DNA of 56,251 nt, filler included, from Fonticula-like sp. SCN 57-25 (lineage: Eukaryota): the NCBI GenBank assembly GCA_001724245.1. It is 2 parts of 2 records of this genome, joined end to end, with 100 filler letters (N's around TTAATTAATTAA, not from the genome) between each part and the next. Parts side by side here need not be neighbours in the genome. Positions count along the whole stretch, not along the records: positions 28,225 to 56,251 come from MEDX01000053.1; 1 more part is not named here. One strand, written 5' to 3'. Of this stretch, positions 18,995-46,942 are shown in pieces. Under the pieces are notes generated by a model. The model saw nothing but the letters and a program-made list of their open reading frames with translations. It was not told the DNA's origin and searched no databases. Each line of letters starts with the position of its first letter. Position 1 is the stretch's first letter. Position numbers and translations under genes: made by a program.

Positions 18995-19405
18995 AAAGCG
19001 ATTCTCTTTTAATTTGTGCCATTTTGATTTCATAAACAGAAACATTCGTATTCATTATCATTATGCGATAACAAGCAAGCACAATGGCGATGATCACTGC
19101 ATGAAAAAGTATGCCACAAAAGTTGGAATATGGCACAGCAAATGGTATCAAAACATGATAATATGGAAACCCACAGGCATAACTATAACACAGCTCAAAG
19201 TATGTACATGATTAAATGCTTATGCAATGGTGTCTACACCATGTCTACACCGGCAGGCGGTCTTGAGGAGCGTCGCTCAATGTGGATAGGTCGATTACGT
19301 ATTCGTCATCGCGGAGGACGGCTAGCGGGATGGCGGCAAGCCAGAGCTGCAGCAAAAGCGAGATTATTGAGTTGAAGCACAGAAAGGCCGGTCCAGACAC
19401 AGTTC

Positions 19406-19815: not shown

Positions 19816-20218
19816 GTGCTGGTGCCCGCCGACGGCTGATTGTGCCTGATTCTTCTGATCCAAATCAGTCGCAATTTGCTGACACCGCTCGCCCCTGATT
19901 CCGGGGCGAATTATTGCAAAGCCGGAACGCGATTGGCCGAGCCGCCTGCCACGCAAAGGAGGAAATTTCGGCAATTCACTCACACATAGGCCTGGGCGGT
20001 CAGTGGTTCGGCGACTCCGATCCTTTTCCGTGCGTTGACACCATCCGTCGCCGCGCGCTGCTAACCGGCGCCGTCGCTAGGTGAAAGCACTGTTGTTTGC
20101 TCCGGTTTAGCTCCGGGGTTCTTGTCGTCGGGGGGGTTGATTCTCGTCCCCCTTTTAGGTCGGGCGTTTCTGCTTTGTTTGAGGGGTGGAAAGTAGTCGA
20201 GGTGGAAAGGAAGGGAGC

Positions 20219-20787
20219 ATGATGTCGAGCCAGAGGAAAAGCGGGGGCGGCGCGAGGGGCGCCAGTGGCTCCTCAAAGCGCAAGAGCGCTGCGTCGTCGG
20301 GTTTGGCAAGGGCCGACGCGGGGCACGGCCTGCAGGAGGAGATGGCGCGGTATGACGTCGGCGGATCTGCGCAGGACGGCATGGACAGCGTCCAGGACGC
20401 GATGACTACCCCGACGGTACGCGTGCCTATTCAAACCTTTTTTCCTTGTTTGTTTTCCCGTTGCCTCGTGTGGGCTTACACGTGCGCGCCCCGGTGCAGA
20501 TCGACTTTGACAAGCTGGACATCGCCGCGCTCAAGCGGTACAAGGGGCACTACAACCTCCGCGTCAAGCACAATGCCACAAAGAGCGAGCTCGCTGCTGC
20601 CATCGCGCGCCACTTTGAGAACCACGCGGTCGAGGAGCTCGAGACGATCACCTACTTTTTGTACACTGTGAGGAATAACGGTACGTCATCCCTCGTGCAA
20701 CGTGGTGTGGGGTGGTGATGGTGGCTGACCTGATGGGTGCGCATCGCAGAGCGAATGGTCAAGGGCAAGGACGCCAAGCGCTCGTGA
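20219..20787 (+). CDS. SAP30: SAP30-like Sin3/HDAC complex subunit (Sin3-binding domain), 3 exons
   Basis: IDFDKLDIAALKRYKGHYNL..ATKSELAAAIARHF..VEELETITYFLYTVRN matches the SAP30 C-terminal Sin3-binding domain; no zinc finger seen. Confidence 0.85.
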
Positions 20788-21107
20788 CCGTCAAGCATGT
20801 ATTCTTAATGGGAGTGCAATGTCTTTTGTGCGTTTGTTGCGGTCCCGGCCAGAGGCGAGAGGCGCCTTTGGTCTCTTTCGGTTTCACGGAGGAACGTGTT
20901 GGTTGTACATGTCGGCCTTTTATATGTCAGTTTTCTTTATTCTCTTCAAATATATGAACAATAGTAATATTTTGTCATTATGGTACACAGGCCAAGCATG
21001 GTTTCTTCGCCGGGCATGCCCGCCGCCTCTAACGATCCCCGCACTCCATGGGCCATCCGCCGGATCACCCCAAAAAAATTCCGCCGCCAATTCACGCGCG
21101 CGCTCGA

Positions 21108-21574
21108 CTACTGAAGCCGCGGCTTCTTTGCCTCGCTACGCAGCTCGTAGAGCTGCCCCACCTGCTCGTCCGTCAGGCCACGCGACAGCGCCGGGTCAAT
21201 GACCTTGCCGAGCTTGCGGGCCCGCGTCTGAGAACATCATCCAAAGCAAAAGCAAGCCACGTCAGTAAAAGCAACAACAAAAATGACTTGCGCACATCAA
21301 CCTGCTGCTGGATCACCTGCGCGTACTCGCGCCATCCCTGCATGAAGGCCGGAATAAACTCTGGCTTGGCAGTGCTGTGGCTGTCGACGACGCCACGAGG
21401 TCAGTCACCAGGCCACAAAATACAACACCACCACCATAAATGACAAGCCGTGTACCGCTTAAACTCGTCGCGCGCGTACGCACTGCCAAGAATGCGAAAC
21501 TCTTCCGGCAGGAGCCGGTGCAGCCGCTGGATCTGCCGGAACAGCCGCAGCGCCTCCTCGTTGCGCACAGACAT
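21108..21574 (-). CDS. SDHAF3: Succinate dehydrogenase assembly factor 3 (ACN9/Sdh7, LYR family), 3 exons
   Basis: LRLFRQIQRLHRLLPEEFRILGSAYARDEFKR|H...FMQGWREYAQ...LGKVID..LTDEQVGQLYELR; stop TAG at 21108-21110. Confidence 0.9.
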
Positions 21575-21654
21575 GGCGATCACGTGATTTAGCGTGAATT
21601 TCCGCATCATTACGGTAACGTTACCGCGGTGTTCGTGTGTGGAGGGCGGCCGCC

Positions 21655-24569
21655 ATGACGAACGAGTCGGAGCTCAACAAGGCGACCAACACGTATCTGT
21701 CGCGGCGCCAAGTTAGGCCGTCGGAGAACGCGCGCGGAGACACATCGCTCGACGAAGCCGTCTTTAGCGTACGCGTTGCAGCTCGTTTCCGCGCAGAAAA
21801 TGGTGTCTTACGATGGCGCGCTAGACGAACGCCGACGCCGATGCGAGCGCGTCGTTTGTCACAGCGCAGGGCAACGGGAGGTTACATGACCCTACCACCT
21901 TTGTCGAGCAGTATCGCGCGCTGAGCAATTGGGTCAGCGCGTCGCTAGATCTCTACAAGGTCCGTCGCGTGTTGGACGTGGGCATGGCAACTAATCACTT
22001 TTGCAGCCCGAGCTCCGCGCGGTCCTGTTCCCGCTCTACGTGCACTCGTACCTCGACATTTTCCAGCAGAATGCCGACAAAGGTACGAATGTATGTTGCC
22101 TTCCTCCTTGTGCTCATTTGCTGCTTTAGGCCGCGAGTTCCTCGAGCGGTTCGAGGGCGATCACATTGAAAAGCACGCGGCCGAGATTCAAAAGCTTAAG
22201 GCGATCTCTGCTGCGCAGTTTAGGGAAAACGATCTAGTAAAAGCGATTCTGGCGAGCAGATACAATGTAAAGCTCTGCTCCTTTTCGTACGAGCTGCTCG
22301 TCTTTTTCCTCCACGACAATGGCTACTCGCTCATGATGAGCCTCATCACCAACCACCTCAACATCCAGAGTGCGCATCCCTCATAAATCGTGCAAAATTT
22401 CCCTTTTAACGCTCCTTTTCAGCGCATCCCGGCCGGCCAAGCATAAAGGTGGACGAAGAGTCGTCGTTCCTGAGCATGGGCCCCGGCATGAGCGTCGGCG
22501 AAAAGGCGCTCGTCCCCGTCCTCTGGGGCGCCATCGAGCCCGACATTGACGTACGCACATTCAATATTGCCAATTTCGCCATTTTGTGGCACATTTCGTG
22601 TTGTCTTGTGCCACATTGCACTCATTTGACGTCATTTATGCATAATTTTTGATGCTATTCTTGCATTTCTCCTTTCATTTCTCTGACACTTTTCCCTTCA
22701 GGCACCCGTCGAAGGCGCCACGAAGCGCAAGGCCAAGGCCGACGAGCCCGGCGCGCACGTCCCCCCCCCCGACCGCATCCCCAAACCCAAGCCGCGCGAC
22801 GAAGAAATCCAAGCCGACCTGAACGCCCTCAAGGAAATGCGCCAGCGCATCCACATTGGCCCGTCTGCGCTGCCGTCCATCTGCTGCTACACCTTCCACA
22901 ACACAAACGACACGCTGTCGTCGCTGACCATTTCTGACGACTCGTCGCTCATGTGCGCGGGCTTTTCAGAGTCGCACATGAGCATGCACAACCTGCGCGG
23001 GGTGCGTTTTTGGGGCCTGTGGGCGGTTAGAACTGACGTTGTTGATTGTAGGAGACGTTCAAGGCGATGAAGGCGCCGAATGAGTTGCCGACAATCTTGC
23101 AAATGGACGCAAAGGAAGGTGCGAAATTTACTTTTATTGAATTGGATAATGTGGAAAATAGTTGTAAATGACAATATTTTTGGTTCTCTTGTGAATTGCC
23201 TGTGTTTATACCTACCTTCTCTTGTGATTTTCCCATCCTTCTTACACACTTTCTTACCTATTCCTGTACATCTTTCTCACTTATTTCTTGCCCAGTTGCT
23301 TCTCTTGACCGCTTCATGGAAGACTCTGGCCGCTCCGAGCGCCGCCTCATCGGCCACGCCGGCCCCGTCTACTCGACCTCCATCAGCCGCGAGAACCAGT
23401 TCCTCCTCTCTGCCTCTGAGGACGCCACCGGTACATACTTAACATTACTTATCCACGTGGCCCACTGACGTCATCAATAGTGCGCATGTGGTCGCTTCAG
23501 ACGTGGTCGAATTTGGTTGCGTACAAGGGGCACAACTCGCCCGTATGGGACGTTCAGTTTGCGCCGATTGGGTTTTACTTTGCCACCGCGTCACATGACC
23601 GCACGGCGAGGCTGTGGTCATGTGATCATATTACGCCGCTGCGCATCTTTGCGGGGCACCACAGCGACGTCAACGTGCGTGGAACGAATTTATTATGGTT
23701 ATTTTGCTGACATTTCGACCCATTGGATGTTTAATTTTGCTTTTTTTGTTTGTAATTTTCTTTTTTCTTGCTTGTTTTTGCCTTGTTTACCTTTCTTTTT
23801 CGCCTATTTTTGCTTGTTTTCCTTCTATTTTTGCCCACTTTCCCTTTCATTTCCACTCTTTTTTCTCCCCCTTTCTGCCCTTCCCTTCACCAGGTCGTGC
23901 GCTTCCACCCCAACTCCAACTACATTGCCACCGGCTCCTCCGACAACAGCGTTCGCCTCTGGGACGTCCAGTCCGGCAACACTGTCCGCGTCTTCCCCGG
24001 CCACACTGGCGCCGTCCACGCGCTCGCCTTTTCCCCCGACGGCCGCTCGCTCGCCTCCGCCGGCGAGGACGGCGTCGTCATGCACTGGGACATTTCGTCC
24101 GGCAAGCGCATCAAGCGGCTGGCGGGGCACCGCGGGTGTGTCCAGTCGCTCAGCTTTTCGGTGGATAATGCAATGCTGGCGTCGGGTGCGATGGATAATA
24201 CGGTGAGGCTGTGGGATGTGCACCGCTCGGGTGTGCGCGAGGACAAGCCGGCTGAAGAGTACGTTTTTGATGTTTTTTTAAGCTTTTTTGAGGTTTTTTT
24301 TGATGCTTTTTTGATGCTTTTTTGATGGTGTTTGATGCAATTTTGATGCATTTGTGATGCATTTTGATACTTTTTTATACCTGTTTGATACTTTTTGATG
24401 CAATTTTGATGCTTTTTTCTTTTTGCTGACAACTCTGCACAGTGGGTCAAAGACGGAAGTGTCGGCGGATTTGCTGGGGACGTTTACGACAAAGGCGATG
24501 CCGGTGCAGCTCGTGCACTTTACGCATCGCAATATTCTGCTTGCGGGTGGGGCGTACAGCGGAATCTGA
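21655..24569 (+). CDS. TAF5: TFIID subunit TAF5 (NTD2 plus WD40 repeats), multi-exon
   Basis: [108 protein letters not shown]. Confidence 0.93.
24265..24420 (+). repeat. Degenerate ~11-nt minisatellite (TTTTGATGC-like) in the last TAF5 intron
   Basis: About a dozen imperfect TTTGAT(G/A)C units in tandem. Confidence 0.7.
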
Positions 24570-24874
24570 AAAGGCGTTTCTTTTTGTCTCGTGATGTTGC
24601 TTGTTGTACATGTCGGTGCTTTCGATGAATAAAAGCACGTTGATCTGATGAGGAAATTTTGATTAAAGTACATTTATTGCAAATGAACATGGTGAAAATG
24701 GACACTTGACTGCACTTTAATGCGTATCTGGGTACATTTACAGCCATTAATATTCAGTATTGCATGTCGACAAGTCCCAAAAGCTTTGTTTCATTGGTCA
24801 GACTACGTGCATTTGATCCATCAGAATTACTCTCATTAGATTATGCATGCACATTACATTACAACTACACTTTG

Positions 24875-26224
24875 TTATAATGAAGCAGGGCTTGCGAGGT
24901 TTGACGGCACCTGCGGCGTCGCGAGCAGGTGCGCAAACCTCGCCCACCACGCCTCCCTATCCCCCGCCAGCGGCGCGAGGTAGTCCCTCACCATATCCTG
25001 CCCCACATTGTAGTTGATGACGTACGCGCGGTACGCCCTGATAAACTTTAGCCGCTGCGCCGCCCTTTCCGGCGCCATCAGCGCGTACTTGCACAGCCAC
25101 TCGAGCGCCTTTTCCTCGCTGAGCGACCCGTCCATGACGCCACGTGCGACCTCGTTTCCCGCGTACGACAGCTGCTGCGCCTTTTCCTCCACGAGGTAGT
25201 ACGTGTGCGCGTCGGCGGCGTCCAGGCCGGCCAGCGGGAAGAGCACGGTGGACTCGAAGGCGACGCGCTCTTGGACGGTCGGGAAGACCATGCCGATGCC
25301 GTAGTTGGCGGTGCCTTCGGCGATCAGCGACTGGGGGGAGAAGAGGGGGTAGATGCCGAATTCGACAAAGCCGCGATCGACGACGAGCTTTTCTTCCAAG
25401 AGGCAGTTGAACACATGGTGGCCGGGGTAGCCTGCGGGGAGGCAAAGAGGGGTTTGGGTGAGCAGATGCGTGAGGAAAAGAGGGGCGCACCTTCGTGGGC
25501 GGCGAGATCGACGGCGCGGTCAATGTAGATCGGGAGATCAGTGTTGACCTCGATCACAGAGTGGAAGCTGCCTTTGTACCAGTTGTAGCCGCTCCAGGGC
25601 TTGTCAGTGACATATCTAATATCAAAGCTCTCTTGGGCGGGGAGCTTTGTCCAGCATCAGCATGCATGCACGTTTGATAGCCAAGCGTACCGAGATGTGA
25701 GCCTTGGTGCGCGATCGCGACTCTTCGATGGCCGCGCGGAAGACGGCGTCCAGGCGGTCCACAGGGATGACAAACTGGCTCTTAAAGGCAGCGTACCGCT
25801 CGGTGAGAGGCGCAGTGCCGCGGCCGGGGATCAGCTCGTCCACCTGATCGACCAGGCGCTGAAAGTGCGCCTCGTCAAACCGAGGGGGGGTCGCATCGTA
25901 CAGTTTGGACGCTTCCTCGTCGAACGAAAGAGGCACTGCGCCGGGCGATAGCATGAGCGCATACGTGCGAATGGCGACAAGCTGCTTCTTGAGGAAGAGG
26001 CGCCGAAGTACATTGATGGGATCCGCCGCCTCGTCGGCAGTCAGCTCGGGCATTGACGCCAGGACATTGCCGGCTCGGTCCGCAATTTCCGGAAGGCTCG
26101 GGAGAGGATTGCTGCCCAGGATGCTCACCGCGGGGCCATAAAGGGCGTCAATGTAGCCGTCCGAGTGCGCGCCGAGATCGCGGACAAGCACGACGTACTC
26201 GCGCGCTGTGGCATCGAGCGACAT
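24875..26224 (-). CDS. Bacterial-type DUF885-like putative zinc metalloprotein, 3 exons
   Basis: GYIDALYGP, YVTDKPWSGYNWYKG, EVNTDLP, AAHE|GYPGHHV, SPQSLIAEGTANYG, YRAYVINYNVG; two short GT-AG introns (about 25688-25622 and 25490-25432). Confidence 0.8.
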
Positions 26225-28124: not shown

Positions 28125-28224
28125 NNNNNNNNNNNNNNNNNNNNNNNNNNNNNNNNNNNNNNNNNNNNTTAATTAATTAANNNNNNNNNNNNNNNNNNNN
28201 NNNNNNNNNNNNNNNNNNNNNNNN
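28125..28224. other. Artificial contig-joining spacer (44 N + TTAATTAATTAA + 44 N)
   Basis: Symmetric N runs around a 12-mer giving stops in all six frames; intron-rich eukaryotic DNA on the left and intronless phage DNA on the right. Confidence 0.98.
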
Positions 28225-29996: not shown

Positions 29997-30100
29997 CCAG
30001 GGGGGCTAGGGGGTGCCCCTCGGGGTGAGACAGTTCACCGACCACAAAGTTCTTGTGTCATCTCGGAGCACTTTTAGGGCAAAAAGATATACCTACTAGC
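29997..30100. other. Probable cos/packaging region
   Basis: G-run-rich non-coding gap (GGGGGGCTAGGGGGTGCCCCTCGGGG) between HNH and terS, the usual cos location in HK97-like phages; the cut site itself cannot be determined. Confidence 0.5.
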
Positions 30101-30505
30101 ATGGCACGACCCGGACCTAAACCGAGAGCTAAGGCCGATTTCCTGAAGGGCCGACCCCAGCCCCCCGCCCACCTCTCCGAGGCCGAGATGGAAATCTTCC
30201 TGGAGGTGGTCGAAGAACTCGACAAGCAAGCCGTCTTGGCCGAGACCGACACGAAGTTGATCGCCCTCTACGCCAATACGGAGGCGATGGTGCGGCGTAT
30301 CGGCCGTGAGCTATCGACGGACACTCTGACCAACACGAGCGAGATACACAACAAGGTTTCGGGCAACCCGCTCCTCCCCCAATACTTCTCCGGGATCAAG
30401 CTCGCACAGCAACTCCTCTCGAAGCTCGGGCTCACGCCGACCTCCAGGCGTACCGCCCCCGGTGCCGCAGCCGCAGACCTGGCGGACAAGTGGAGGCTCC
30501 AGTGA
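30101..30505 (+). CDS. terS: Terminase small subunit (P27-like)
   Basis: MARPGPKP, PPAHLSEAE, D..LIALYAN, NPLL, KLGLTPTSR. Confidence 0.9.
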   Translation: MARPGPKPRAKADFLKGRPQPPAHLSEAEMEIFLEVVEELDKQAVLAETDTKLIALYANTEAMVRRIGRELSTDTLTNTSEIHNKVSGNPLLPQYFSGIKLAQQLLSKLGLTPTSRRTAPGAAAADLADKWRLQ

Positions 30506-32070
30506 GCCGCAAGAAGGAGGACGTCCGCCACAGGGGGCACAAGGTCTGCGACTGGATCGAGAGGTGCATCCCGCTCGTGGGCGACAAGCTCGGGCAGTCC
30601 ATCAAGTTGCCGACCTGGCAACGCCTCATATTCGAGACGATTTACGGCACCCTCGACGAGGAGGGTAAGCGGATCATCCAGACCGTGTATATCCAGCTTC
30701 CCCGCAAGGCGGCGAAGACCTTCATCGCAGCATTGTTCATACTGATCGCCCTAATCGCAGAGGGCAAGGGCGATCAGGAATGCTATTGCGGTTCGTGGAC
30801 GACGAAGAACTCGGCACGCATCTTCCGCTACCTCTTGACGATCATCAACAGCGATCCATATCTCAAGGCCAACTTCCGTGTGAACCACGGGCAGAAGGAG
30901 CTTGAGTGGCTGCCGACGGGCAACACCTTCAAGAGCCTCTCGGGCAATCCCGAGAACACGCACTCGATCGCCCCGTCGGTCATGGTCATCGATGAGTTGT
31001 GGATGTTCAGGGGCGAGAAGGGGCGAGCCCTCTACGAAGGTCTCACGTCGGGCGATTCGGGGCGAGAAGAGCCGCTCACGGTGATCATCACGACGGCCGG
31101 CACCAACAAGCAATCCGTCTGCCACGAAGAATACCAGTACGCCAAGAAGGTGCAGGCGAAGCCGTCCGAAGATCCGAGTTACCTGCCCATCATCTATGAG
31201 ATGGGCGAAGAGGACGACCCCTTCGATGAAGCTAACTGGTACAAGGCCCAACCAGCCCTGTACAACCCGGAGACCGGCGAAGGGTACGTGAGCCTGGACA
31301 AGTATCGCAAGGTCGCCGAGAGGGCGAAGACCAATCCACGCATCAAGAACTCCTTCCTCCAGCTTTACCTAAACAGGTGGGTGGAGAGTTCCTTCGGCTG
31401 GATACCCTCGGAAAGCTGGGACGCCTGCAAGACGAAGTTCTCGCTCGACGACCTGAATGGGAAGAAGGCGTACGGCGGCTTCGACTTCGGCCTCACCCGT
31501 GACCTGGCGGCGTTGACCCTCATCTTTCCGATGCCGAACGGCAAGTTTCGTGTCCTCAAGTGGGCGTGGGTCGCCAAGGGGACCGTGAACGAGCGGATCG
31601 AGAATCAGGACCGAAGGTACGCCCAGTGGTTTGAGAATGGCTTGATCCGAGTCACCGAAGGAGAGGGAACCGACCACGAGACGATCGAGCGCCAGGTGAT
31701 CGAGATATGCAAGCAATTCGACGTCAAGTTTATATGTGCCGACCCGATGGCGTGCGGCGAGACCCTGAAGAATTGGAGGAAGGCGAAGCTCCAGACCTTC
31801 GAGTGGAGGCAGAGCAACATCCAGGCGACATCTCAGGCGGCGAAGCGGATCGAATCATTGATCTTGAACAAGAAGCTGGAGCACAACGGCGATGAGGTGC
31901 TGAAGTGGTGCGTGACCAACGCCACGGCAAAGACCGATATTTACGACAACTTGAAGATCGACAAGCAGTGTCCCGAAGGCCGGATCGACCCGTTGATGGC
32001 CATGGTCTTCGCCATGGGCGGACACCTCGGTGCAAAGAAGGTCGTGAAGCCCGGAATGATGAAGTTGTGA
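30502..32070 (+). CDS. terL: Terminase large subunit
   Basis: LPTWQ, Walker A-like PRKAAKT, Walker B VMVIDEL, IITTAG, nuclease GGFDFG..DLAAL and RIDPLMA. Confidence 0.96.
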   Translation: MSRKKEDVRHRGHKVCDWIERCIPLVGDKLGQSIKLPTWQRLIFETIYGTLDEEGKRIIQTVYIQLPRKAAKTFIAALFILIALIAEGKGDQECYCGSWTTKNSARIFRYLLTIINSDPYLKANFRVNHGQKELEWLPTGNTFKSLSGNPENTHSIAPSVMVIDELWMFRGEKGRALYEGLTSGDSGREEPLTVIITTAGTNKQSVCHEEYQYAKKVQAKPSEDPSYLPIIYEMGEEDDPFDEANWYKAQPALYNPETGEGYVSLDKYRKVAERAKTNPRIKNSFLQLYLNRWVESSFGWIPSESWDACKTKFSLDDLNGKKAYGGFDFGLTRDLAALTLIFPMPNGKFRVLKWAWVAKGTVNERIENQDRRYAQWFENGLIRVTEGEGTDHETIERQVIEICKQFDVKFICADPMACGETLKNWRKAKLQTFEWRQSNIQATSQAAKRIESLILNKKLEHNGDEVLKWCVTNATAKTDIYDNLKIDKQCPEGRIDPLMAMVFAMGGHLGAKKVVKPGMMKL

Positions 32071-33621
32071 GTGCAGGCCCCTATATACGGCATGCCAAAT
32101 CTGCCGAAGAAGAAACTGAAGGGGACCATCGATCGGCAACCGATCAAGACCCGCACATTCACAAGGGTGTTGAGCACCGAGGCCCTCTTCCCTCGTGTCA
32201 ACGGGCGGGCGAAGAATCTGCCCGCCGACAACTACTTGAACCATCACGCCGTCCAGGCGATCGTGAGCGACTTCGCCCAAACAATCGCCGCTCTGGACGC
32301 TTACGTATTTGAAGAGCGGGACGGCGTCAAGGTGCGGATCGACGACCACCCGGCCACGAAGACACTGGCCAACCCCTCGGCGAGGATGCCGGGCTTCGAC
32401 CAGCGTGGGGCGAGCGTCGTCGATTATTTCATCGAGGGAGAGGCGTTCCTCGAAGTGATCCCGACGGCCGACCCGACGCTCTCCAGAAGGAAGTATCCGT
32501 ACCTCGAAATCCCGCAGCGTGGTTCGGTGAAGCCGACGGTCAAGGATGGTCTCGTGACCTACACGACCACCAGGGGCGAGATCGGCCCCGAGGGCATCGT
32601 TCATGTGAAGATGCCCTCGGTGGACGGCGGTACGAGCGGCTCCAGCCTGTTCACCTCTTGCCGTCAGGCCCTCGATCTAGCGATGGCTGCGGAGGCATAC
32701 GCCACCGACATCCTCGAAAAGGGAGGCATCCCGGCGGGGTTCTTGGTCTCCAGCGAGGAGGTTGACGCCAAGCAGGCTCGCAGCATCAGGAAGACTTGGA
32801 AGAAGCTGCACGCCGGCCCCAACAACCGGGGCGAGATCGGCCTCTTGTGGGGCAGTCTCCGCTTCGAAAAGACTGGATTGACGCCCGACGAAGTGCAACT
32901 CAACGCAACCCAGGAATACGCCATCCGGTCTATCGCCCGGATCTTCCGATATCCGGCGAGCTACCTCCTTGGCACCCCACCCACCGAAGAAGATCGGGTG
33001 CAGTTCTTCCGAACGGTCCGTTCCCACCTGGAGCCGTTCGAGGCGGCGTACACCTTCACCCTATTGTCCGACGAGGACAAGGCGAAGGGCAGGTACATCG
33101 AGTTCGACACGTCGAGCTTGAACCGGATCTCGCCGGCCCAGATCGCCGCTATCACGCCGCTACTGGACTACGGCCTCTTCACCGTGAACGAGACCCGCAA
33201 TATGTTCGGCTACCCGCCGACGGCCGGCGGCGACGTCCGTCCCGTGGCAGTCAACAATATCAGGTATGTGGATGCGAGTGTGCCGCTTGATAGCGGTGTG
33301 ACCGAGCCCGCACCCATGGCACTCCCGGCCCCGGCCACCGAGCCGGCCCCGACTAACGAGCCCTCGAAGACCGACGCCCAGCGTGCCGCCATCGAGGACG
33401 TAGTCGGTCGGCTGCTGCGACGTGCCCGGAAGAACGTGGCCAAGGCAGGCGAGGACGTGGAGGCCATCGAGGCGAAGGAGATGGCGTTCGTCAGGACGAC
33501 GGCCGAAGTCTACTGCCCTGCCTTCGGCCTTGAGGTCGAAGCCTTCGTGGCGGTCATGAAGGAGGAAGTCTTCACGAATACGGCTATCGAGGAAGTGGTC
33601 AATCTCATGGAGGTGAAGTAA
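32071..33621 (+). CDS. Portal protein (HK97 family)
   Basis: Follows terL; HPATKTLANP, GEAFL, GIVHVK, GGIPAGFL, IARIFRYP, FTVNETRNMFGYPP..GGD. Confidence 0.93.
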   Translation: MQAPIYGMPNLPKKKLKGTIDRQPIKTRTFTRVLSTEALFPRVNGRAKNLPADNYLNHHAVQAIVSDFAQTIAALDAYVFEERDGVKVRIDDHPATKTLANPSARMPGFDQRGASVVDYFIEGEAFLEVIPTADPTLSRRKYPYLEIPQRGSVKPTVKDGLVTYTTTRGEIGPEGIVHVKMPSVDGGTSGSSLFTSCRQALDLAMAAEAYATDILEKGGIPAGFLVSSEEVDAKQARSIRKTWKKLHAGPNNRGEIGLLWGSLRFEKTGLTPDEVQLNATQEYAIRSIARIFRYPASYLLGTPPTEEDRVQFFRTVRSHLEPFEAAYTFTLLSDEDKAKGRYIEFDTSSLNRISPAQIAAITPLLDYGLFTVNETRNMFGYPPTAGGDVRPVAVNNIRYVDASVPLDSGVTEPAPMALPAPATEPAPTNEPSKTDAQRAAIEDVVGRLLRRARKNVAKAGEDVEAIEAKEMAFVRTTAEVYCPAFGLEVEAFVAVMKEEVFTNTAIEEVVNLMEVK

Positions 33622-34241
33622 TGGCGATTCAGCATAAGTCCTTGAGCAAGATCCAGGCCCAGAACCTCGAAGGCCGCACCTGGATTCACGGCGTCGGCTG
33701 TGTGTATGGCGATAAGTCCCTACCTATGGACGACCAGGGCACAAGATTCATCTTCAAGCCGGGGTGCTTCTCATCTTGGCTCGGCCAGGACGGTCACGAC
33801 GTCCGCATCCTCAAGCATCACAACGAAGAATACATTCTCGCCCGGCAACGCAACGGCACCGTGATCGTGGAAGACACCTCAGCCCAATTGAATCTCCGTT
33901 TCGCACTGGACTCGACCAACGAAGGGAAGGACACGGAGATCCAGGTGAGGGACGGCTTGCTCACGGAGATGTCGGTGGGGTTCATCCTCTTGGAGGCCGA
34001 GGAGATCGAGCCTAACGTCTGGCTCGTGACTGAGGCGTACCTCGATGAAGTTTCAATCGTAACCGTGCCGGCCATGCCCAACACGAACGTATGGATCGAG
34101 GAGAAGAGGAACCAGGCCCGACGATCCGCAGCCGCATTCGCACGGGCGAAATTCGAGAGCGTGTGCATAGATAATCGAAAGCTCAAGTGTGCAGTCATCC
34201 TAAGATCGACGGGCCGCTCGAACCAGTCCTCCAAGTCCTAA
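33621..34241 (+). CDS. Prohead protease (HK97 family)
   Basis: FKPGCFS, VRILKHHN, EMSVGF, LDEVSIVTVPAMPNT. Confidence 0.92.
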   Translation: MAIQHKSLSKIQAQNLEGRTWIHGVGCVYGDKSLPMDDQGTRFIFKPGCFSSWLGQDGHDVRILKHHNEEYILARQRNGTVIVEDTSAQLNLRFALDSTNEGKDTEIQVRDGLLTEMSVGFILLEAEEIEPNVWLVTEAYLDEVSIVTVPAMPNTNVWIEEKRNQARRSAAAFARAKFESVCIDNRKLKCAVILRSTGRSNQSSKS

Positions 34242-34286: not shown

Positions 34287-35609
34287 ATGGACAAACAAAT
34301 GACGGAAGAAGAGAAGCAGGCCCTCATCGCTGAGGCCGAGCAGATCGCAGCCCTTGGGGACCAGGCCAGCCCGGAGCAGATCGCCCGCCTGGACGAGATC
34401 ACCAAGGCCCTCGAAGAGGACAACGCCAAGGCCGCCGAGGTCGTCGCCGAACTCCAGAAGGCCGGCAGCATCGAGAAGTTCGCACGAGCCAAGGAGGCCA
34501 TGGTGAGTCTGAAGACCGAGACCGAGAAGTTCGCAAGCCGCCCGGCCCCTCGCAAGACCGAGGCCCCGGCCGTCCACACGAAGAAGTGGAAGTACGACCT
34601 CAAGCGGGCTTTCCAGGGGATCGCCAAGGAGAGGACCCTTGACGGCATGGAGGGCGAGTGGAGCCAGGAGCGCCGCAAGCAGTTCAGCGGTATCCGTAGC
34701 GTGGTCGGCGAGCTTGTCCCCACCCGTGCCTTCGCCAACTACGGCAAGGTGGAATTCGATTGGGTGACTGGCGACACGCCGACCTTGCTGGAGCCGCAGC
34801 ACGATGGCCGCTACGGCGACGTTCAGCGTGATTACGACCCCCTGAGGGACATGGGCGTCACGATCCACACCGGCAAGACGCACGCCTTCAGCAGCGGCGT
34901 CTATACGGCCGACCCGGAGCTTCATTTCCCGGGCGAAAACCAGACCGCCCCGGCGACCAAGCCCGAATATCGCAAGTACGACTTCAAGCCGCATACTGGC
35001 CAGGCCCGTGTAGCCGTCAGCCACGACGCCCTGTACAGCAACGAGAATGTCGATGAACAGCTTCGTCGGGCTCTTGATCCGTCCGTGCGTGTCGGTGCCG
35101 CCAAGATCGCCATCAGCGGCGACGGCGTGACCGAGCCTTATGGCCTGTTGACCGACCCGGACAACGCATCGAGGATTATCACCTCGATCACGTCCGTATC
35201 ACGGGCGAACCTCAAGAAGATGCAATATGCGGTCCGCAAGGGCAATTTTATCACCAACAAGTTCTCGTGGCTGGGCAATTACGACGTGTCGAGCAAGCTC
35301 GATAGCACGCCTGAGGAGAGCGGCTTCCCGAAGTATATCCTGGGCGACGACGGCAAGGTGTACGGTGATCCGTTCTACGGGACCAACATCGTGCCGAACA
35401 TGGGCTCTCCGGCCACCGGCGTGCTCGTGTACGGTGCCTTCGAGTTCCTGGAGGTCGCCTTCTTCGGCCCGGCCGACGCCGTCGAACTGATCGTGGACCG
35501 CAACACCCTGTCGAGCAAGGGCATGGTCCAGTACACGGCCCTCGTGTCGCTCGACGTCAATACGGCTCGCCCTGAGGCGTTCAGCGTGGCCAGCAAGATC
35601 GCAATCTAA
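34287..35609 (+). CDS. Major capsid protein (HK97 fold with N-terminal delta domain)
   Basis: Coiled-coil N-terminus, GENQTAP, ISGDGVTEPYGLL, C-terminal ARPEAF; follows the protease and precedes a strong hairpin. Confidence 0.92.
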   Translation: MDKQMTEEEKQALIAEAEQIAALGDQASPEQIARLDEITKALEEDNAKAAEVVAELQKAGSIEKFARAKEAMVSLKTETEKFASRPAPRKTEAPAVHTKKWKYDLKRAFQGIAKERTLDGMEGEWSQERRKQFSGIRSVVGELVPTRAFANYGKVEFDWVTGDTPTLLEPQHDGRYGDVQRDYDPLRDMGVTIHTGKTHAFSSGVYTADPELHFPGENQTAPATKPEYRKYDFKPHTGQARVAVSHDALYSNENVDEQLRRALDPSVRVGAAKIAISGDGVTEPYGLLTDPDNASRIITSITSVSRANLKKMQYAVRKGNFITNKFSWLGNYDVSSKLDSTPEESGFPKYILGDDGKVYGDPFYGTNIVPNMGSPATGVLVYGAFEFLEVAFFGPADAVELIVDRNTLSSKGMVQYTALVSLDVNTARPEAFSVASKIAI

Positions 35610-35631
35610 CCCATTGGTTAAGCCGATCACG

Positions 35632-35664
35632 AAAAGGGCCTGTCAGAGATGACAGGCCCTTTTT
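35632..35664 (+). terminator. Rho-independent terminator after the capsid gene
   Basis: AAAAGGGCCTGTCA-GAGA-TGACAGGCCCTTTTT perfect stem with T tract. Confidence 0.9.
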
Positions 35665-35688
35665 CGTTTCCAGAGCATAGATAACATC

Positions 35689-35922
35689 ATGAACACCAAA
35701 TACATCACCAGCGTGAAGCTGGTATCGAACTGCATCTACAAGATGAACGGCGAACTCGTGGAGGGTAAGCCGGGCGAGATCCTCGAAGCCTTCCCGAAGC
35801 CTGTCGCTCTCAAGATGGTCCGCAACGGCGTGGCCGTCCTGACCAACGGCAAGGGACCGAAGCCGAAGAAGAAGGCCGAAGTGGAGGTCGTGGAAGTCGA
35901 TGGCGAGACCGAGGAAGTCTGA
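35689..35922 (+). CDS. Small head-module protein
   Basis: 77 aa directly after the capsid gene; VKL..GEILE.FP..VA.KMV.NGVAV pattern with Lys/Glu-rich tail; ATG 5 nt after ATAGATA. Confidence 0.75.
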   Translation: MNTKYITSVKLVSNCIYKMNGELVEGKPGEILEAFPKPVALKMVRNGVAVLTNGKGPKPKKKAEVEVVEVDGETEEV

Positions 35923-36832
35923 TCAATACTGGAGCGGTGGGATAGGCGATTGCCTGGTCCTGGAGTCGCATTGGGAGACGCCTCCACGGGCCATCTATTG
36001 GAGGTGTCGAGCCCGGCCGGATCTTCAAAAACCCCTCTTTGAAGTCGCCTACCCGAAGGTGCGGCACGTCAACCTCCTCTCCCACCTGACCGAGGATGAG
36101 GAGCGTATGGCGGCCCTGAACGGCTGGGACGACGGCGGGGAGCACACCCCCGAAGGCGTCGAAGACTGGACGGTTCACACGAAGTTCCCCGAGTTCAAGA
36201 AGAACCCAGGTTCCTTCCGTCGCTCCAGGTTCCTCGAAGTCAAGCTCGCCGACATCAAGAAGTTCAACCTCCCCGAGCGGTACTTCGTGTGTCAGCACGA
36301 CACCCCATATAACGGCCAGTCGATGCGACAGCATAGACAGATAGCAGGCCCGGAATGGGAGGTCGTGCGTCGGCAGGCGTGCGGGCTCCCGGTCGTCGTC
36401 GTCGGCTCGAAGGGCTCGATCCCGTGTCCCGACTGGTGCCTCGACCTCGTGGGAGAGACCAGCCTCGCCGAGAGTGTCGAGATCCTGAAGGGGGCGGTCG
36501 GCTATATCGGGATCGACTCGGCGCTCAGCATCCTGGCAGCCCAACTCTTCGAGGCCGACAAGCTGGCCATCAAGTGGCACGGCCCGTGGCTCTGGCAGAA
36601 TCGCAGCGTGTACTACGCCCCGCACAAGTCCTTCGAGTTCCTGCACAAGCAGTTCAAGGCGTCGGCCGTGCCGCAGCTACCGAAGACGGTGAAGGTATTG
36701 AAGCCGCTCGTGTACAGGCTCGACATGATCGAAGCGGGCGTCGTCCTGGAGGACGTGCCGCACAAGTTGGCGTCGGACTGGATAGATAGGGATATGGCCA
36801 TGCTTACCGACAAACCCGAGGTATCAAGTTGA
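35900..36832 (+). CDS. GT9-like (GT-B) glycosyltransferase with extra C-terminal domain
   Basis: N-terminal GGIGDCL and DLVGETSLAESVEILKGAVGYIGIDSALSILAA match GT9 heptosyltransferase-family motifs. Confidence 0.8.
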   Translation: MARPRKSDQYWSGGIGDCLVLESHWETPPRAIYWRCRARPDLQKPLFEVAYPKVRHVNLLSHLTEDEERMAALNGWDDGGEHTPEGVEDWTVHTKFPEFKKNPGSFRRSRFLEVKLADIKKFNLPERYFVCQHDTPYNGQSMRQHRQIAGPEWEVVRRQACGLPVVVVGSKGSIPCPDWCLDLVGETSLAESVEILKGAVGYIGIDSALSILAAQLFEADKLAIKWHGPWLWQNRSVYYAPHKSFEFLHKQFKASAVPQLPKTVKVLKPLVYRLDMIEAGVVLEDVPHKLASDWIDRDMAMLTDKPEVSS

Positions 36833-37404
36833 TCGAGTTCGCAGTCGTTGAAACCCCCGAGGTTGAACCCGTTGACCTCCAGTACGCCCGCAAGTGGTTG
36901 AAGCTCCTCAACGACCTGGAGGACGATCTCCTCACGGATGGTCTGATCGCCGGACGTGAGTACGTCGAGACCTACTTGGAGCGGAAGCTCTTGAACACGA
37001 CGCTCGACATCGTCCTCGACGAATGGGACGACTTCGACGGGATCGTCGATCTACCCTTGGGCGGTATCTCCGAGGTCCAGGAAGTGGCCTACAAGGCCGA
37101 GGACGGCACTGAGACCGTATGGCCGTCCGACGCCTGGAGTTCGCTCTCAGGCTCTCCAGGGAGGTTTTGGAGCTTGTCGGGCGAATACCCGGAGATCGGG
37201 GCGAAGGCGGGCGGGCTGCGTGTCAGGGTGGTGTCTGGCTACGGCTCGACGGCCGACAAGGTCCCCACCAAGATCCGCCAGGCCATCACCTACTTCGCCG
37301 CTCACCAGTTCTCCACCCGTCTCCCGATCGCCTTCGGCACGCCGCAGGAAATCCAGATGACCATCCATGACCTGTTGAGGCAAGAGAAGTGGAGGCACCT
37401 GTAA
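36829..37404 (+). CDS. Head-tail connector (gp6/gp15-like adaptor)
   Basis: PEVEPVDLQYARKWLK..EDDLL...AGREYVE, VVSGYG..VPTKIRQAI; TTGA overlap. Confidence 0.9.
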   Translation: MIEFAVVETPEVEPVDLQYARKWLKLLNDLEDDLLTDGLIAGREYVETYLERKLLNTTLDIVLDEWDDFDGIVDLPLGGISEVQEVAYKAEDGTETVWPSDAWSSLSGSPGRFWSLSGEYPEIGAKAGGLRVRVVSGYGSTADKVPTKIRQAITYFAAHQFSTRLPIAFGTPQEIQMTIHDLLRQEKWRHL

Positions 37405-45587: not shown

Positions 45588-45610
45588 GCATGTCGTGGAT
45601 AGATAACGGC

Positions 45611-46942
45611 ATGCCGAACCAGGAATACAACTACAGCAACAACCTCTATACCACGGTGGCGACCGTCAGGGCTCCAGGCGGCTCCACCATCCAGGTGGCC
45701 GACCCTGACAAGTTCGCCGCCGTCGAGTGGCCAGTCCGCCTATCGGTCCTCAGGGACGACGGGTCGTTGTACGGCCTCTTGATCGCCATCTTCCGGGCGA
45801 CGGGAATCGTCGGTTCTGAGATCGCCGTCGATGGCGTCCTCGAAGGGACCGTCGATTCCACGATCGAGGTGGGCGACTTGGTGATGGTCGCCCAGACGGC
45901 CGGCGACTTTGACGACCTGTGGAACGCCCTCGAAGAGATCGAGACCACTCCAGGCCCTCAGGGTGCTCCAGGTGCAGACGGAGGTACTGGTCCTCAGGGT
46001 GATCGAGGCTCTCAGGGCTTCCAGGGTGCGGCTGGTCTTCAGGGTGTTCAGGGTGCTACCGGACCTCAGGGCGATCGAGGCCCTCAGGGAGCTACTGGTG
46101 TCCAGGGAGCTACTGGTGTCCAGGGAGCTACTGGACCTCAGGGTTCCGCTGGTCTTCAGGGTTCCCAGGGTGCGACTGGTCCTCAGGGAGCCGCTGGTCT
46201 TCAGGGTGTCCAGGGTGCGGCTGGAGCACAAGGTCTTCGAGGCTTCCAGGGCGATCGAGGCCCTCAGGGCTATCAGGGATACCAAGGACTCGGTACGCAA
46301 GGCCCCCAGGGTGGCGGCACACAAGGCCCTCAGGGAGCACCTGGAGTAGGCACTCAGGGCAACCAAGGTACACAGGGAGTTCAAGGTTCCCAGGGCGGTG
46401 GCAGTAGCCTGGCCCTCGGTGCGGCCGTTTCTGGTGCCACCAACAACAGGTTGCTCAACATTACCTCGGGCAACCTCTCGCAGTCCGCAAACCTCTCCTT
46501 CGACGGCTCGACGCTCGAAGTCCAGGGTGCGGTGAACCTCAAGAACACCGTCGGCTCAGTCGCCAGCACCTTCGACGCCAATGGTTACGGATTCGTGTAT
46601 ACGATGTCGTTCTCCTTGGCCAAATTGGTGGATCTCGCCACAGGCACGGACCTCACCCGAGGTGGGCAGATCGCAGGCTTCGCAGGGACGATTTCCAAGG
46701 TCAAGATTCAGGCGACCACCAACGGCTCGTCGGGCGGGTTCACGCTCCAGATCAATAAGAACGGCACTTCGATCTTCACGAGCAATCCCACGGTGGCGGC
46801 ATCCACGACCACTGTCCAGTCCTTCACGCCGACCACCACGACCATGGCTGAGAACGACGTACTCACGGTGGATTGCACGTCTACCGGGACCAGCGTCCAG
46901 AACGTAATGGTGACAATCTATGCTCTTGTGAGGAATGCTTAA
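45611..46942 (+). CDS. Collagen-like tail fibre protein
   Basis: Long Gly-X-Y tract ([12 protein letters not shown]) then a Thr-rich beta C-terminal domain; start placed at ATG 45611 (5 nt after ATAGATA), alternative 45590. Confidence 0.85.
45953..46396 (+). repeat. Collagen Gly-X-Y coding repeat (9/18-nt period)
   Basis: Recurrent CAGGG units, e.g. tandem GGAGCTACTGGTGTCCAG. Confidence 0.9.

What the first reader, a model, noticed from the sequence alone, without database searches (positions are those of the whole stretch)
35689..36832. Head-operon glycosyltransferase ending in a copy of the neighbouring small head-protein domain
Seen: a GT9-like gene sits between the capsid gene and the head-tail connector, overlapping both neighbours. 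Its last ~50 aa (36683-36832; KTVKVLKPLVYRLD..AGVVLEDVPHKLASDWIDRDMAMLT) align by eye with the upstream 77-aa protein (TSVKLVSNCIYKMN..PGEILEAFPKPVALKMVRNGVAVLT), sharing VK....Y, G..LE..P...A and A.LT. Established: some mycobacteriophages glycosylate their virions with phage-encoded glycosyltransferases; bacterial GT9 enzymes are LPS heptosyltransferases. Inference: the shared domain may dock the enzyme on the capsid or portal, giving a virion-glycosylation system that could use host nucleotide-heptose.
Basis: partly seen in the sequence, partly recalled or inferred. Interest (0 to 1): 0.8.

Follow-up and report, generated by a model that had tools for sequence, protein, structure and literature searches.

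The report
Phage glycosyltransferase carrying a gpFI-like domain
A phage head-gene cluster encodes a heptosyltransferase-like enzyme whose last 50 residues are a diverged copy of the small protein encoded just after the capsid gene; that fold resembles lambda's capsid-binding packaging helper, so the enzyme may be steered to assembling phage heads, though this is unproven.

Summary
ORF 35900-36832 (310 aa) is a compact GT-B enzyme closest to family GT9. It lies between a 77-aa ORF and the head-tail adaptor and overlaps both.

Its residues about 258-305 are homologous to the 77-aa protein:
- Smith-Waterman score 46, reached by 0-3 of 1000-2000 shuffles.
- Profile-profile probability 96%.
- The same pairing, stronger (z 10.5), in a second, distant phage.
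- One shared best PHROG family.

The shared domain folds confidently (pLDDT 86). It resembles the lambda gpFI C-domain, YqbF and DUF7210-type small phage proteins, and it sits at gpFI's gene position.

A controlled complex prediction supports binding of the 77-aa domain to the capsid protein (0.74; best control 0.00). However, the enzyme's copy keeps only 2 of those 20 contact residues, so docking of the enzyme itself stays open.

Donor sugar, acceptor and host are unknown. The eukaryote-like DNA in the window is a separate contig glued on through an artificial spacer.

I reached the gpFI reading before seeing earlier notes. This scan had already noted the same theme (a post-capsid domain fused to glyco-enzymes) on other DNA (e1-5987623, e1-6097982). 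My three literature searches found no paper describing it.

Verdict: a new variant of phage virion glycosylation. It is plausible but untested.

The parts
34287..35609 (+). Major capsid protein (HK97-type), 440 aa. It is the predicted binding partner of the 77-aa domain.
   Evidence: Pfam PF05065, E 1.4e-13. PHROG major head protein. Predicted interface residues 277-299, 370-379 and 434-437.
35636..35664 (+). Terminator-like hairpin (10-bp G+C stem, GAGA loop) followed by TTTTT, between the capsid gene and the 77-aa gene.
   Evidence: Sequence read. RNA fold of 35612-35690 gives -31.7 kcal/mol, z -6.15, with 0 of 200 shuffles as stable. The consensus scan did not list it.
35689..35922 (+). 77-aa protein. 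Residues 6-52 form a small beta-beta-beta-beta-alpha-beta domain (gpFI-C / DUF7210-like), followed by a Lys-rich then acidic tail.
   Evidence: GC3 0.83, like its neighbours. AF2 pLDDT 86.4. Fold matches. phrog_2616 E 0.015. Complex prediction with the MCP.
35900..36655 (+). GT-B, GT9-like catalytic part of the 310-aa protein (residues 1-252). It carries the invariant GGIGD and GIDS motifs.
   Evidence: GGAGG lies 12 nt upstream of the ATG.
36671..36832 (+). C-terminal tail of the enzyme (residues 258-310): a diverged copy of the 77-aa protein's domain, with a shorter beta2-beta3 hairpin.
   Evidence: An ESM Atlas structure search of residues 255-310 gives a DUF7210 cluster at TM 0.76, and the same 57-aa, 105-member cluster that the 77-aa protein gave.
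36829..37404 (+). Head-tail adaptor (gp6-like). Its TTG start overlaps the enzyme's TGA stop.
   Evidence: PF05135 E 5.4e-4, just under the cut-off. phrog_442 head-tail adaptor E 1.4e-11. Sequence.

Best explanation
This is the late (head) operon of an uncultured temperate siphovirus-like phage. After the capsid gene and a leaky terminator-like hairpin come two translationally coupled genes.

The first gene (77 aa) is a gpFI-type post-capsid protein: a small folded domain that binds the major capsid protein on assembling heads, plus a charged flexible tail.

The second gene is a soluble GT-B glycosyltransferase of a virus-specific, GT9-related family. In one clade of head-operon phages it acquired a copy of that same small domain at its C-terminus. 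My reading is that this copy works as an address tag. It would bring the enzyme to procapsids or heads, either directly or through the 77-aa protein, so that the enzyme glycosylates a virion protein late in infection using a nucleotide sugar from the host pool.

Shown in silico: the gene layout, the GT-B/GT9-like fold, the homology of the two segments, the fold of the domain, and predicted binding of the 77-aa domain to the capsid protein.

Inferred: docking of the enzyme itself, catalytic activity, donor sugar, acceptor, and any benefit of the glycan.
For: - Layout and coupling.
- GT9-like GT-B fold. There are 26 invariant columns across 8 family members, including G14, G16, D17, E191, E194, K197 and G204-I205-D206. 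This fits an enzyme under selection.
- Tail and small protein are homologous.
- The three tail-bearing enzymes (window, L001, P0002) form one clade with 100/100 support among 12 family members. This points to a single, retained fusion.
- The same order, MCP - small domain protein - enzyme with tail - gp6-like adaptor, is kept in L001/L006 although the MCPs are only 25% identical.
- Domain fold: lambda gpFI C-domain 2LSM (Foldseek probability 0.99, TM 0.67/0.61, E 0.2; VIA Z 5.8, 51 residues aligned, rmsd 3.1) and YqbF 2HJQ (Z 4.3).
- Weak sequence match to the gpFI C-end in the same register: hhalign P 1.4e-3; P0002 tail against FI-C reached by 2 of 1000 shuffles.
- gpFI's gene lies at the same position, E-FI-FII.
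- gpFI is thought to act through the major head protein (passages in bioRxiv 10.1101/2020.07.16.206755, PMC13595911 and PMC4493119).
- Complex prediction of the 77-aa domain with MCP residues 111-439: 0.74 against a best control of 0.00. The mark was reached by 51 of 78 solved complexes and 2 of 108 mismatched pairs, the runs agree in at least 95% of contacts, and the partner's pLDDT is at least 82.
- Phage-encoded glycosyltransferases do glycosylate capsid and tail-tube proteins in mycobacteriophages (passages in PMC12363180 and PMC11256854).
Against: - The enzyme's tail keeps only 2 identical and 6 similar of the 20 residues by which the 77-aa domain is predicted to touch the MCP, and it lacks 4 of them (the hairpin tip). 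What the two copies share is mostly the fold's core.
- In that tool's own test, 7 of 44 neighbouring gene pairs drawn blind also pass.
- The fold is a common small one. GINS B-domains score higher (Z 7.2), ribosomal L9 N-domains score about 5, and no Foldseek PDB match reaches E 0.001.
- The Pfam models for gpFI (PF14000) and DUF7210 (PF23843) find nothing in these proteins.
- The window's enzyme is below Pfam's GT9 cut-off, and its model has a mean pLDDT of only 60.
- The MCP has no obvious Ser/Thr-rich C-terminal extension; it ends ...EAFSVASKIAI.
- Relatives of the enzyme in large viral contigs sit in other contexts. One lies between two DNA methylase genes and one lies next to sugar-nucleotide genes. 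The family as such is therefore not tied to heads.
- No glycan, activity or expression data exist.
Confidence: 0.45

Rival explanations
1. The tail does not bind the capsid. Instead it pairs with the homologous 77-aa protein (like-with-like pairing of small beta domains). The 77-aa protein would then be either the adaptor that carries the enzyme to the head or the acceptor that gets glycosylated.
For: The two copies share the fold's core but not the predicted MCP-contact surface. The genes are adjacent and overlapping. In the second phage the small ORF and its own enzyme tail are markedly alike (score 65, z 10.5).
Against: No pairing was tested. The 77-aa protein has no Ser and a single Thr in its flexible tail (sequence), which makes it a poor O-glycosylation acceptor. 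The 5-sequence domain tree is unresolved, so there is no evidence that the two copies co-evolve.
Confidence: 0.17
2. The 310-aa protein is the phage's gpFI-type packaging chaperone. As in lambda gpFI, the small domain sits at the extreme C-terminus. The N-terminal part (here a GT-derived module, possibly no longer catalytic) would take the place of gpFI's N-terminal region and bridge terminase-DNA and prohead.
For: It has the same topology and the same gene position as lambda FI, just before the head-tail joining genes. gpFI bridges the capsid and the terminase-DNA complex (passage, PMC13595911).
Against: The GT core is better conserved than the capsid protein between the two phages (42% against 25% identity), and the motifs typical of GT9 active sites are invariant (their role is recalled, not tested). 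The 77-aa protein, a domain plus a charged tail, already looks like the chaperone.
Confidence: 0.12
3. The enzyme glycosylates phage DNA (a base hypermodification), and the gpFI-like tail places it at the packaging site.
For: Phage glycosyltransferases that hypermodify DNA are known (abstracts seen for bioRxiv 10.1101/2023.12.21.572611 and PMC13326640). One relative (L004) lies between two N6_N4 DNA methylase genes. gpFI acts at the terminase-DNA-prohead step.
Against: Among the ORFs scanned on the phage contig there is no C5-cytosine methylase, TET/JBP-type dioxygenase or hydroxymethylase. Its methylases are D12 N6-adenine and N6_N4 types. The contig is only 28 kb and may be incomplete. GT9 relatives act on LPS or protein, not DNA (recalled).
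Confidence: 0.08
4. The enzyme modifies the host envelope (for example the LPS core) as a conversion or superinfection-exclusion function. The similarity of its tail to the neighbour would be a by-product of a local duplication with no addressing role.
For: The best-known GT9 enzymes are LPS heptosyltransferases (WaaC and WaaF matches).
Against: The gene is embedded in the late head operon and translationally coupled on both sides, with the operon's own GC3 (0.82), so it is not a moron with its own signals. Its relatives are all from viral or metagenome contigs, and none was found in 185,579 bacterial and archaeal species genomes by pattern search. The tail has been retained across a clade whose capsids have diverged to 25% identity.
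Confidence: 0.06

Closest known systems
Phage lambda gpFI, DNA-packaging chaperone (Pfam PF14000; C-domain PDB 2LSM), and B. subtilis prophage protein YqbF (2HJQ)
   Same: - Both are small domains with the same beta/alpha fold.
- The gene lies directly after the major capsid gene and before the head-tail joining genes.
- There is a weak in-register match to the gpFI C-end motif G..VA....GLA.
- Capsid-protein binding is proposed for gpFI (passages in PMC4493119 and bioRxiv 10.1101/2020.07.16.206755) and predicted here for the 77-aa protein.
   Different: - There is no HMM-level membership. PF14000 finds lambda FI at E 2.2e-60 but nothing in L001 and nothing in the window proteins.
- In the 77-aa protein the folded domain is N-terminal and the flexible tail is C-terminal, the reverse of gpFI.
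- A second copy is fused to an enzyme, which I did not find described for gpFI.
Mycobacteriophage virion glycosylation (Che8, Corndog, Myrna; Freeman et al. 2023, seen only as cited in PMC12363180, PMC11256854 and PMC12582341)
   Same: Phage-encoded glycosyltransferases modify the phage's own capsid or tail proteins. Here the enzyme lies in the structural gene block.
   Different: - In cluster F1 phages those enzymes lie near the 3' end of the genome (passage, PMC11256854).
- They are not described, in what I could read, as carrying a capsid-partner domain.
- The enzyme family differs (GT9-like here).
- No glycan has been shown here.
- The primary paper was not held, so its details may bear on this comparison.
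GT9 heptosyltransferases: LPS enzymes WaaC and WaaF, and the protein O-heptosyltransferase TibC
   Same: - GT-B fold with best structural matches to this family.
- TibC is the only PDB sequence hit of the family profile (E 0.1).
- Conserved N-terminal G-x-G-D and C-terminal G-I-D-S motifs.
   Different: - The core is about 250 residues, against 320-400 in these enzymes.
- It scores under Pfam's cut-off.
- It belongs to a virus-only family.
- It carries an extra C-terminal phage domain.
- Donor and acceptor are unknown.
gpFI-like domain joined to other head proteins (TP901-1 MCP3; capsid C-terminal extension by -1 frameshift in Listeria phages, as proposed by Popovic et al. 2012; passage in PMC4493119)
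   Same: The post-capsid small domain is used as a portable module attached to another protein of the head pathway.
   Different: In those cases the carrier is the capsid protein itself. Here it is a glycosyltransferase, joined by ordinary gene fusion with no frameshift.
DUF7210 (PF23843), DUF7302 and phrog_2616: small uncharacterised phage proteins
   Same: - These are the nearest predicted structures for both the 77-aa protein and the enzyme tail (TM 0.55-0.76).
- Many BFVD small phage proteins match at TM 0.73-0.78, some annotated as virion structural.
- phrog_2616 is the shared best PHROG family.
   Different: No Pfam HMM hit. The PHROG E-values are only 0.0016-0.025. None of these families has a known function.

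Membership tests
CAZy GT9 / Pfam PF01075 Glyco_transf_9 | HMM score above Pfam's gathering cut-off (22 bits) | tested here: not met
   The window protein scores 18.6 bits, E 1.3e-3, over residues 176-215 only. Relatives do pass: P0007 31.4 and P0006 28.0 bits, 2 of 5 scanned; L002 26.5 and L003 35.7 bits. The protein is thus a distant relative by transitivity, not a member by Pfam's own rule.
CAZy GT9 / Pfam PF01075 Glyco_transf_9 | GT-B fold (two Rossmann-like halves) closest to solved GT9 enzymes | tested here: met
   Foldseek: TibC E 1.7e-5, WaaF 7.7e-4, 3tov 2.2e-3. VIA: 3tov Z 10.5 (206 aligned, rmsd 4.5), WaaF 10.1, WaaC 10.1, TibC 9.6. The model's pLDDT is only 60.4, and other GT-B enzymes follow within 1-2 Z units.
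CAZy GT9 / Pfam PF01075 Glyco_transf_9 | Active-site motifs: N-terminal Gly-Asp (catalytic base in WaaC) and C-terminal Asp-Ser/Thr nucleotide-sugar motif. Their roles are recalled and come from no call. | tested here: inconclusive
   G14, G16, D17 and G204, I205, D206, S210 are invariant in 8 of 8 family members. In the HMMER alignment the GIDS stretch aligns to TibC's IGLPSGLS. No residue-level structural superposition was available.
CAZy GT9 / Pfam PF01075 Glyco_transf_9 | ADP-heptose as donor | not testable with these tools
   There is no donor-specific signature that I could test. A relative (L002) lies beside genes for an amino/deoxy-sugar pathway, so donors in this family may differ.
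Lambda gpFI family (Pfam PF14000 Packaging_FI) | HMM match | tested here: not met
   PF14000 finds lambda FI at E 2.2e-60 and nothing in the L001 record at E up to 10. Pfam scans of the 77-aa protein, the tail and all 5 domain sequences at E up to 10 gave no such hit.
Lambda gpFI family (Pfam PF14000 Packaging_FI) | Fold of the C-terminal domain (2LSM) | tested here: inconclusive
   Foldseek E 0.2, probability 0.99, TM 0.67/0.61. VIA Z 5.8, 51 aligned, rmsd 3.1, below GINS B-domains at Z 7.2. hhalign against the FI C-domain gives P 1.4e-3 and probability 18%.
Lambda gpFI family (Pfam PF14000 Packaging_FI) | Gene directly after the major capsid gene and before the head-tail joining genes | tested here: met
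   Window order; lambda E-FI-FII; the same order in L001/L006.
Lambda gpFI family (Pfam PF14000 Packaging_FI) | Interaction with the major capsid protein or prohead | tested here: inconclusive
   For the 77-aa domain with MCP 111-439 the prediction supports binding but does not show it: 0.74 against a best control of 0.00. The mark was reached by 51 of 78 solved complexes and 2 of 108 mismatched pairs. The enzyme tail was not tested and keeps 2 of the 20 contact residues.
Lambda gpFI family (Pfam PF14000 Packaging_FI) | Stimulates terminase-prohead DNA packaging | not testable with these tools
   This needs an in vitro packaging assay or genetics.
DUF7210 (PF23843) / phrog_2616 small phage proteins | HMM match | tested here: inconclusive
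   PF23843: no hit. phrog_2616: E 0.015, 0.025 and 0.0016 for 3 of 5 sequences, the best family for each, and none for the other 2. Structure look-alikes at TM 0.55-0.76.
Mycobacteriophage-type virion glycosylation system | Glycan covalently attached to capsid or tail proteins | not testable with these tools
   This needs virion or co-expression glycoproteomics. The phage is uncultured.
Mycobacteriophage-type virion glycosylation system | Phage-encoded glycosyltransferase expressed with the structural genes | tested here: met
   The GT-B enzyme is translationally coupled inside the head operon. Expression itself is not shown.

The most novel reading that the evidence does not exclude
The gpFI-like post-capsid domain is a portable 'head address tag'. 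Unrelated phages would fuse it to different sugar enzymes (a GT9-like enzyme here; a GT4 enzyme and a heptose-pathway multi-enzyme in two earlier, unchecked notes of this scan) to deliver them to procapsids. That would make capsid glycosylation a recurrent, addressable step of head assembly rather than a peculiarity of mycobacteriophages.
Probability: 0.3. Interest if true: 0.75.

Novelty: new variant of a known kind. Interest (0 to 1): 0.6.

Why it matters
Virion glycosylation by phage enzymes is so far established only in a few mycobacteriophages, where it shields particles from antibodies. How such enzymes find their targets is not described in what I could read.

A glycosyltransferase that carries a copy of the capsid-partner domain would give a concrete, testable targeting mechanism. 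It would also give a simple genomic signature (enzyme plus post-capsid domain) for finding such systems in metagenomes. Finally, it would assign a second role to the poorly understood gpFI/DUF7210-type proteins that follow capsid genes in many phages.

Tried and rejected
- BLASTP of the two proteins found nothing. I replaced it with Smith-Waterman plus shuffles.
- MAFFT put the tails out of register when whole enzymes or long tails were aligned. Only the trimmed 5-sequence alignment A5 was used.
- The 77-aa protein has no relatives by word-index search. The full HMMER scan of 1.84 billion representatives gave only itself plus P0010, a repetitive 513-aa protein that I judge spurious.
- The MCP search found only the MCP itself.
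- Pattern scans found no relative of the enzyme in genome contigs, none of TerL in genome contigs or viral contigs, and only L001 itself for the tail. Alignment A5 was too divergent to scan with.
- tblastn of the P0002 tail against 50,697 phage records gave E 4 or worse.
- tblastn of the enzyme and the MCP against the same records gave one distant hit each.
- I considered the idea that the two copies within a phage are more alike than orthologues between phages (concerted evolution). Local scores hinted at it. On the fixed alignment, however, the scores overlap (21-52) and the domain tree is a star, so I dropped it.
- A first reading that the phage sits inside a eukaryote genome was rejected. 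The two N runs flank TTAATTAATTAA, a six-frame stop spacer.
- Runs X2-X4, which hold 52-63% of the sampled words of the eukaryote-like stretch searched (16000-25999), show only ~20-base scraps of the phage piece. Contigs show presence, not absence.
- The ESM Atlas feature search of the tail gave no usable hit.
- The Popovic 2012 and Freeman 2023 papers are not held.
- Literature searches found no paper on a glycosyltransferase fused to a gpFI-like domain, or on a phage heptosyltransferase in a head operon, among the rows listed. The searches were 'phage, glycosyltransferase, capsid, glycosylated, virion' (58 papers, 15 listed), 'virion glycosylation, mycobacteriophage' (24 papers, 10 listed) and 'heptosyltransferase, bacteriophage, capsid' (30 papers, 12 listed).
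Full report
**What is there**

The right-hand 28 kb of the window is a siphovirus-type late operon. In order it holds:
- small terminase 30053-30505
- large terminase 30490-32070
- portal 32071-33621
- S78 prohead protease 33621-34241
- HK97-type major capsid protein (MCP) 34287-35609
- a 77-aa ORF 35689-35922
- a 310-aa ORF 35900-36832
- a gp6-like adaptor 36829-37404
- head closure, gp10-like, tail terminator, major tail and tape-measure genes

Further right lie two DNA methylases, a large serine recombinase and a Bro-N/Ant-like gene.

Between the MCP stop and the 77-aa gene lies a strong hairpin followed by TTTTT (35636-35664). It folds at -31.7 kcal/mol, z -6.15, and reads as a terminator-like element of the kind that often follows capsid genes.

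The 310-aa ORF overlaps the 77-aa ORF by 23 nt. It has GGAGG 12 nt upstream of its ATG. Its TGA stop overlaps the adaptor's TTG start. All three genes share the operon's high GC3 of 0.82-0.83.

**The enzyme**

Pfam gives only a sub-threshold GT9 match: PF01075, 18.6 bits against a cut-off of 22, residues 176-215.

A word-index search of 5.8 billion proteins found 7 relatives (E 1e-35 to 1e-16), covering about 78% of the query, that is the first ~250 residues. Of the 5 relatives that I scanned, 2 pass Pfam's GT9 cut-off. So do the relatives on two large viral contigs.

The 8 sequences share 26 invariant columns, including G14, G16, D17 and G204-I205-D206.

An AF2 model from this shallow alignment is mediocre (pLDDT 60.4) but shows two Rossmann-like halves:
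- Foldseek ranks TibC first (E 1.7e-5), then WaaF, a Veillonella GT9 enzyme and WaaC.
- VIA-align gives Z 10.5, 10.1, 10.1 and 9.6 for these GT9 enzymes over model residues 5-252. Other GT-B enzymes follow closely.
- The family profile's only PDB sequence hit is TibC at E 0.1.

I conclude that this is a compact GT-B enzyme of a virus-borne family distantly related to GT9. Its donor and acceptor cannot be read from the sequence.

**The shared segment**

BLASTP saw nothing. That score was reached by 3 of 2000 shuffles for the whole proteins, 1 of 2000 for the two segments, and 0 of 1000 in a second run.

Independent support comes from relatives. A viral contig (L001) and a near-identical metagenome contig (L006) show the same order: MCP, small ORF, enzyme with tail, gp6-like adaptor. 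An extra 283-aa ORF is inserted before the enzyme. There, the small ORF against its own enzyme tail scores 65, z 10.5. Protein P0002 has the same tail.

A trimmed alignment of the five domain sequences is in consistent register. hhalign of the two small proteins against the three tails gives probability 96.2% and E 2.5e-9.

phrog_2616 is the best PHROG family for the 77-aa protein and for two of the three tails, with E between 0.0016 and 0.025. The window tail and the L001 small ORF gave no hit.

In a tree of 12 family members, the three tail-bearing enzymes form one clade with 100/100 support. This points to a single fusion event that was then kept, even though the capsid proteins of the two phages have drifted to 25% identity while the enzyme cores remain 42% identical.

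**What the domain is**

With only five sequences AF2 folds it confidently: pLDDT 86.4, four strands, a helix and a short strand.

Matches among solved structures:
- Archaeal and eukaryotic GINS B-domains: Z up to 7.2.
- Lambda gpFI C-terminal domain 2LSM: Foldseek probability 0.99, TM 0.67/0.61, E 0.2; VIA Z 5.8.
- Ribosomal L9 N-domains: Z about 5.
- B. subtilis prophage protein YqbF: Z 4.3.

So the fold is a common small one, and structure alone does not prove kinship. However, gpFI is the one match that is encoded at exactly this place, between the capsid gene and the head-tail joining genes. Its C-terminal end also aligns in register with the domain's G..VA....GLA motif: hhalign P 1.4e-3, and the P0002 tail against FI-C is reached by 2 of 1000 shuffles.

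Among predicted viral structures, dozens of small uncharacterised phage proteins match at TM 0.73-0.78, some of them annotated as virion structural. The ESM Atlas points both the 77-aa protein and, separately, the enzyme tail to DUF7210-type clusters, including one identical cluster.

Neither Pfam's gpFI model nor its DUF7210 model detects these sequences. I therefore describe the domain as gpFI-C-like or DUF7210-like in fold and position, not as a member of either family.

**How it may work**

Passages that I read describe gpFI as a packaging chaperone that bridges the capsid and the terminase-DNA complex through the major head protein (PMC13595911; bioRxiv 10.1101/2020.07.16.206755). They also report that Popovic et al. 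proposed gpFI-like modules attached to capsid proteins in other phages (PMC4493119). The primary paper was not held.

The result:
- Score 0.74 in all three runs; best of 3 controls 0.00.
- The mark was reached by 51 of 78 solved complexes and 2 of 108 mismatched pairs.
- The runs agree in at least 95% of contacts, and the partner's pLDDT is at least 82.
- The tool's own verdict is that this supports binding but does not show it, and 7 of 44 blind neighbour pairs also pass.

Against a simple transfer of this result to the enzyme: of the 20 contact residues of the 77-aa domain, the enzyme's tail keeps 2 identical and 6 similar, and lacks 4 (the hairpin tip). By contrast it keeps 9 identical and 18 similar of the 27 other positions.

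The tail may therefore bind the capsid differently. It may bind the 77-aa protein. Or it may bind something else.

My best reading, at 0.45, is a capsid-addressed virion glycosyltransferase. The rivals are pairing with the 77-aa protein (0.17), a gpFI-type chaperone with a GT-derived N-part (0.12), DNA glycosylation at packaging (0.08) and host-envelope modification (0.06).

**Context and caveats**

The eukaryote-like genes in the left part of the window (Myb/Cef1, bZIP, ankyrin, NOL1/NOP2-type methylase) are not linked to the phage. The two 44-N runs flank TTAATTAATTAA, a six-frame stop spacer of the kind used to glue contigs together.

Three runs that hold half or more of the sampled words of the eukaryote-like stretch searched (16000-25999) show only ~20-base scraps of the phage piece. 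The probable source run covers all 30 bins of the phage piece.

The host is therefore unknown, and nothing can be said about a host heptose pool.

Relatives of the enzyme in large viral contigs sit in other settings. One is fused to a methyltransferase beside sugar-nucleotide genes, and one lies between two DNA methylases. The head-operon role would thus be specific to the tail-bearing clade.

**Comparison and novelty**

Phage-encoded glycosylation of capsid and tail proteins is established in mycobacteriophages (passages in PMC12363180 and PMC11256854). In those phages the enzymes lie elsewhere in the genome, and I saw no mention of an addressing domain.

My three literature searches listed no paper on a glycosyltransferase fused to a gpFI-like domain.

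After I had reached the gpFI reading, a look-up showed that this scan had noted the same theme on other DNA: a GT4 enzyme (e1-5987623) and a heptose-pathway multi-enzyme (e1-6097982). These are unchecked AI notes, not evidence. If they hold, the architecture recurs with unrelated enzymes.

I rate this a new variant of a known kind, with interest 0.6.

Noticed in passing
window 28125-28224: Two runs of 44 N flank TTAATTAATTAA, a six-frame stop spacer. The window is therefore two contigs glued together: a eukaryote-like contig (1-28124) and a phage contig (28225-56251, 28,027 b). The longest contig on record for the enzyme is 28,141 b.
   Followed up: yes
window 1-18111: Eukaryote-type genes: Myb_Cef 55-1125(-), Myb 2335-2844(-), bZIP 3776-4576(-), ankyrin 5597-6232(-), GT2 14510-15115, RsmB/F-type methylase 16720-18111. 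Earlier notes of this scan call the genome an uncultured protist. Runs X2-X4 hold 52-63% of the sampled words of the stretch searched in this contig (16000-25999) but only scraps of the phage contig.
   Followed up: partly
L001 1056-1907 (same as L006 3394-4245): A 283-aa ORF with several ~50-residue internal repeats is inserted between the small post-capsid ORF and the enzyme gene in the related phage. It has no Pfam family and may be a mobile, homing-type insertion.
   Followed up: partly
window 35845-35919; L001 2780-2902: The charged flexible tail that follows the small domain sits on different proteins in the two phages. In the window it is on the 77-aa protein (Lys-rich, then acidic). 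In L001 and P0002 it is on the enzyme's tail (helical, then Lys-rich).
   Followed up: no
L002 5986-9493; L004 5143-7574; L003 5110-6738: Relatives of the enzyme in 115-511 kb viral contigs. L002 is a fusion with a methyltransferase next to epimerase/dehydratase, DegT aminotransferase and WbqC genes. L004 lies between two N6_N4 DNA methylase genes. L003 is a 542-aa form.
   Followed up: partly
window 45590-46942: A tail-fibre-like protein with collagen triple-helix repeats (PF01391, E 3.5e-16). It is another conceivable glycosylation acceptor.
   Followed up: no
window 34287-35609 vs L006 1471-2814: Between the two phages the capsid proteins are only 25% identical, while the enzyme cores are 42% identical. 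The enzyme is thus the better conserved gene of the head module.
   Followed up: no
window 35636-35664: The strong hairpin plus T-run after the capsid gene was not listed by the consensus terminator scan, although it folds at -31.7 kcal/mol.
   Followed up: yes
window 48866-50965 (-): A large serine recombinase (Resolvase, Recombinase and Zn-ribbon domains, 699 aa) lies in the middle of the phage contig, with early-type genes to its right. The contig is probably an incomplete or permuted temperate phage genome.
   Followed up: no
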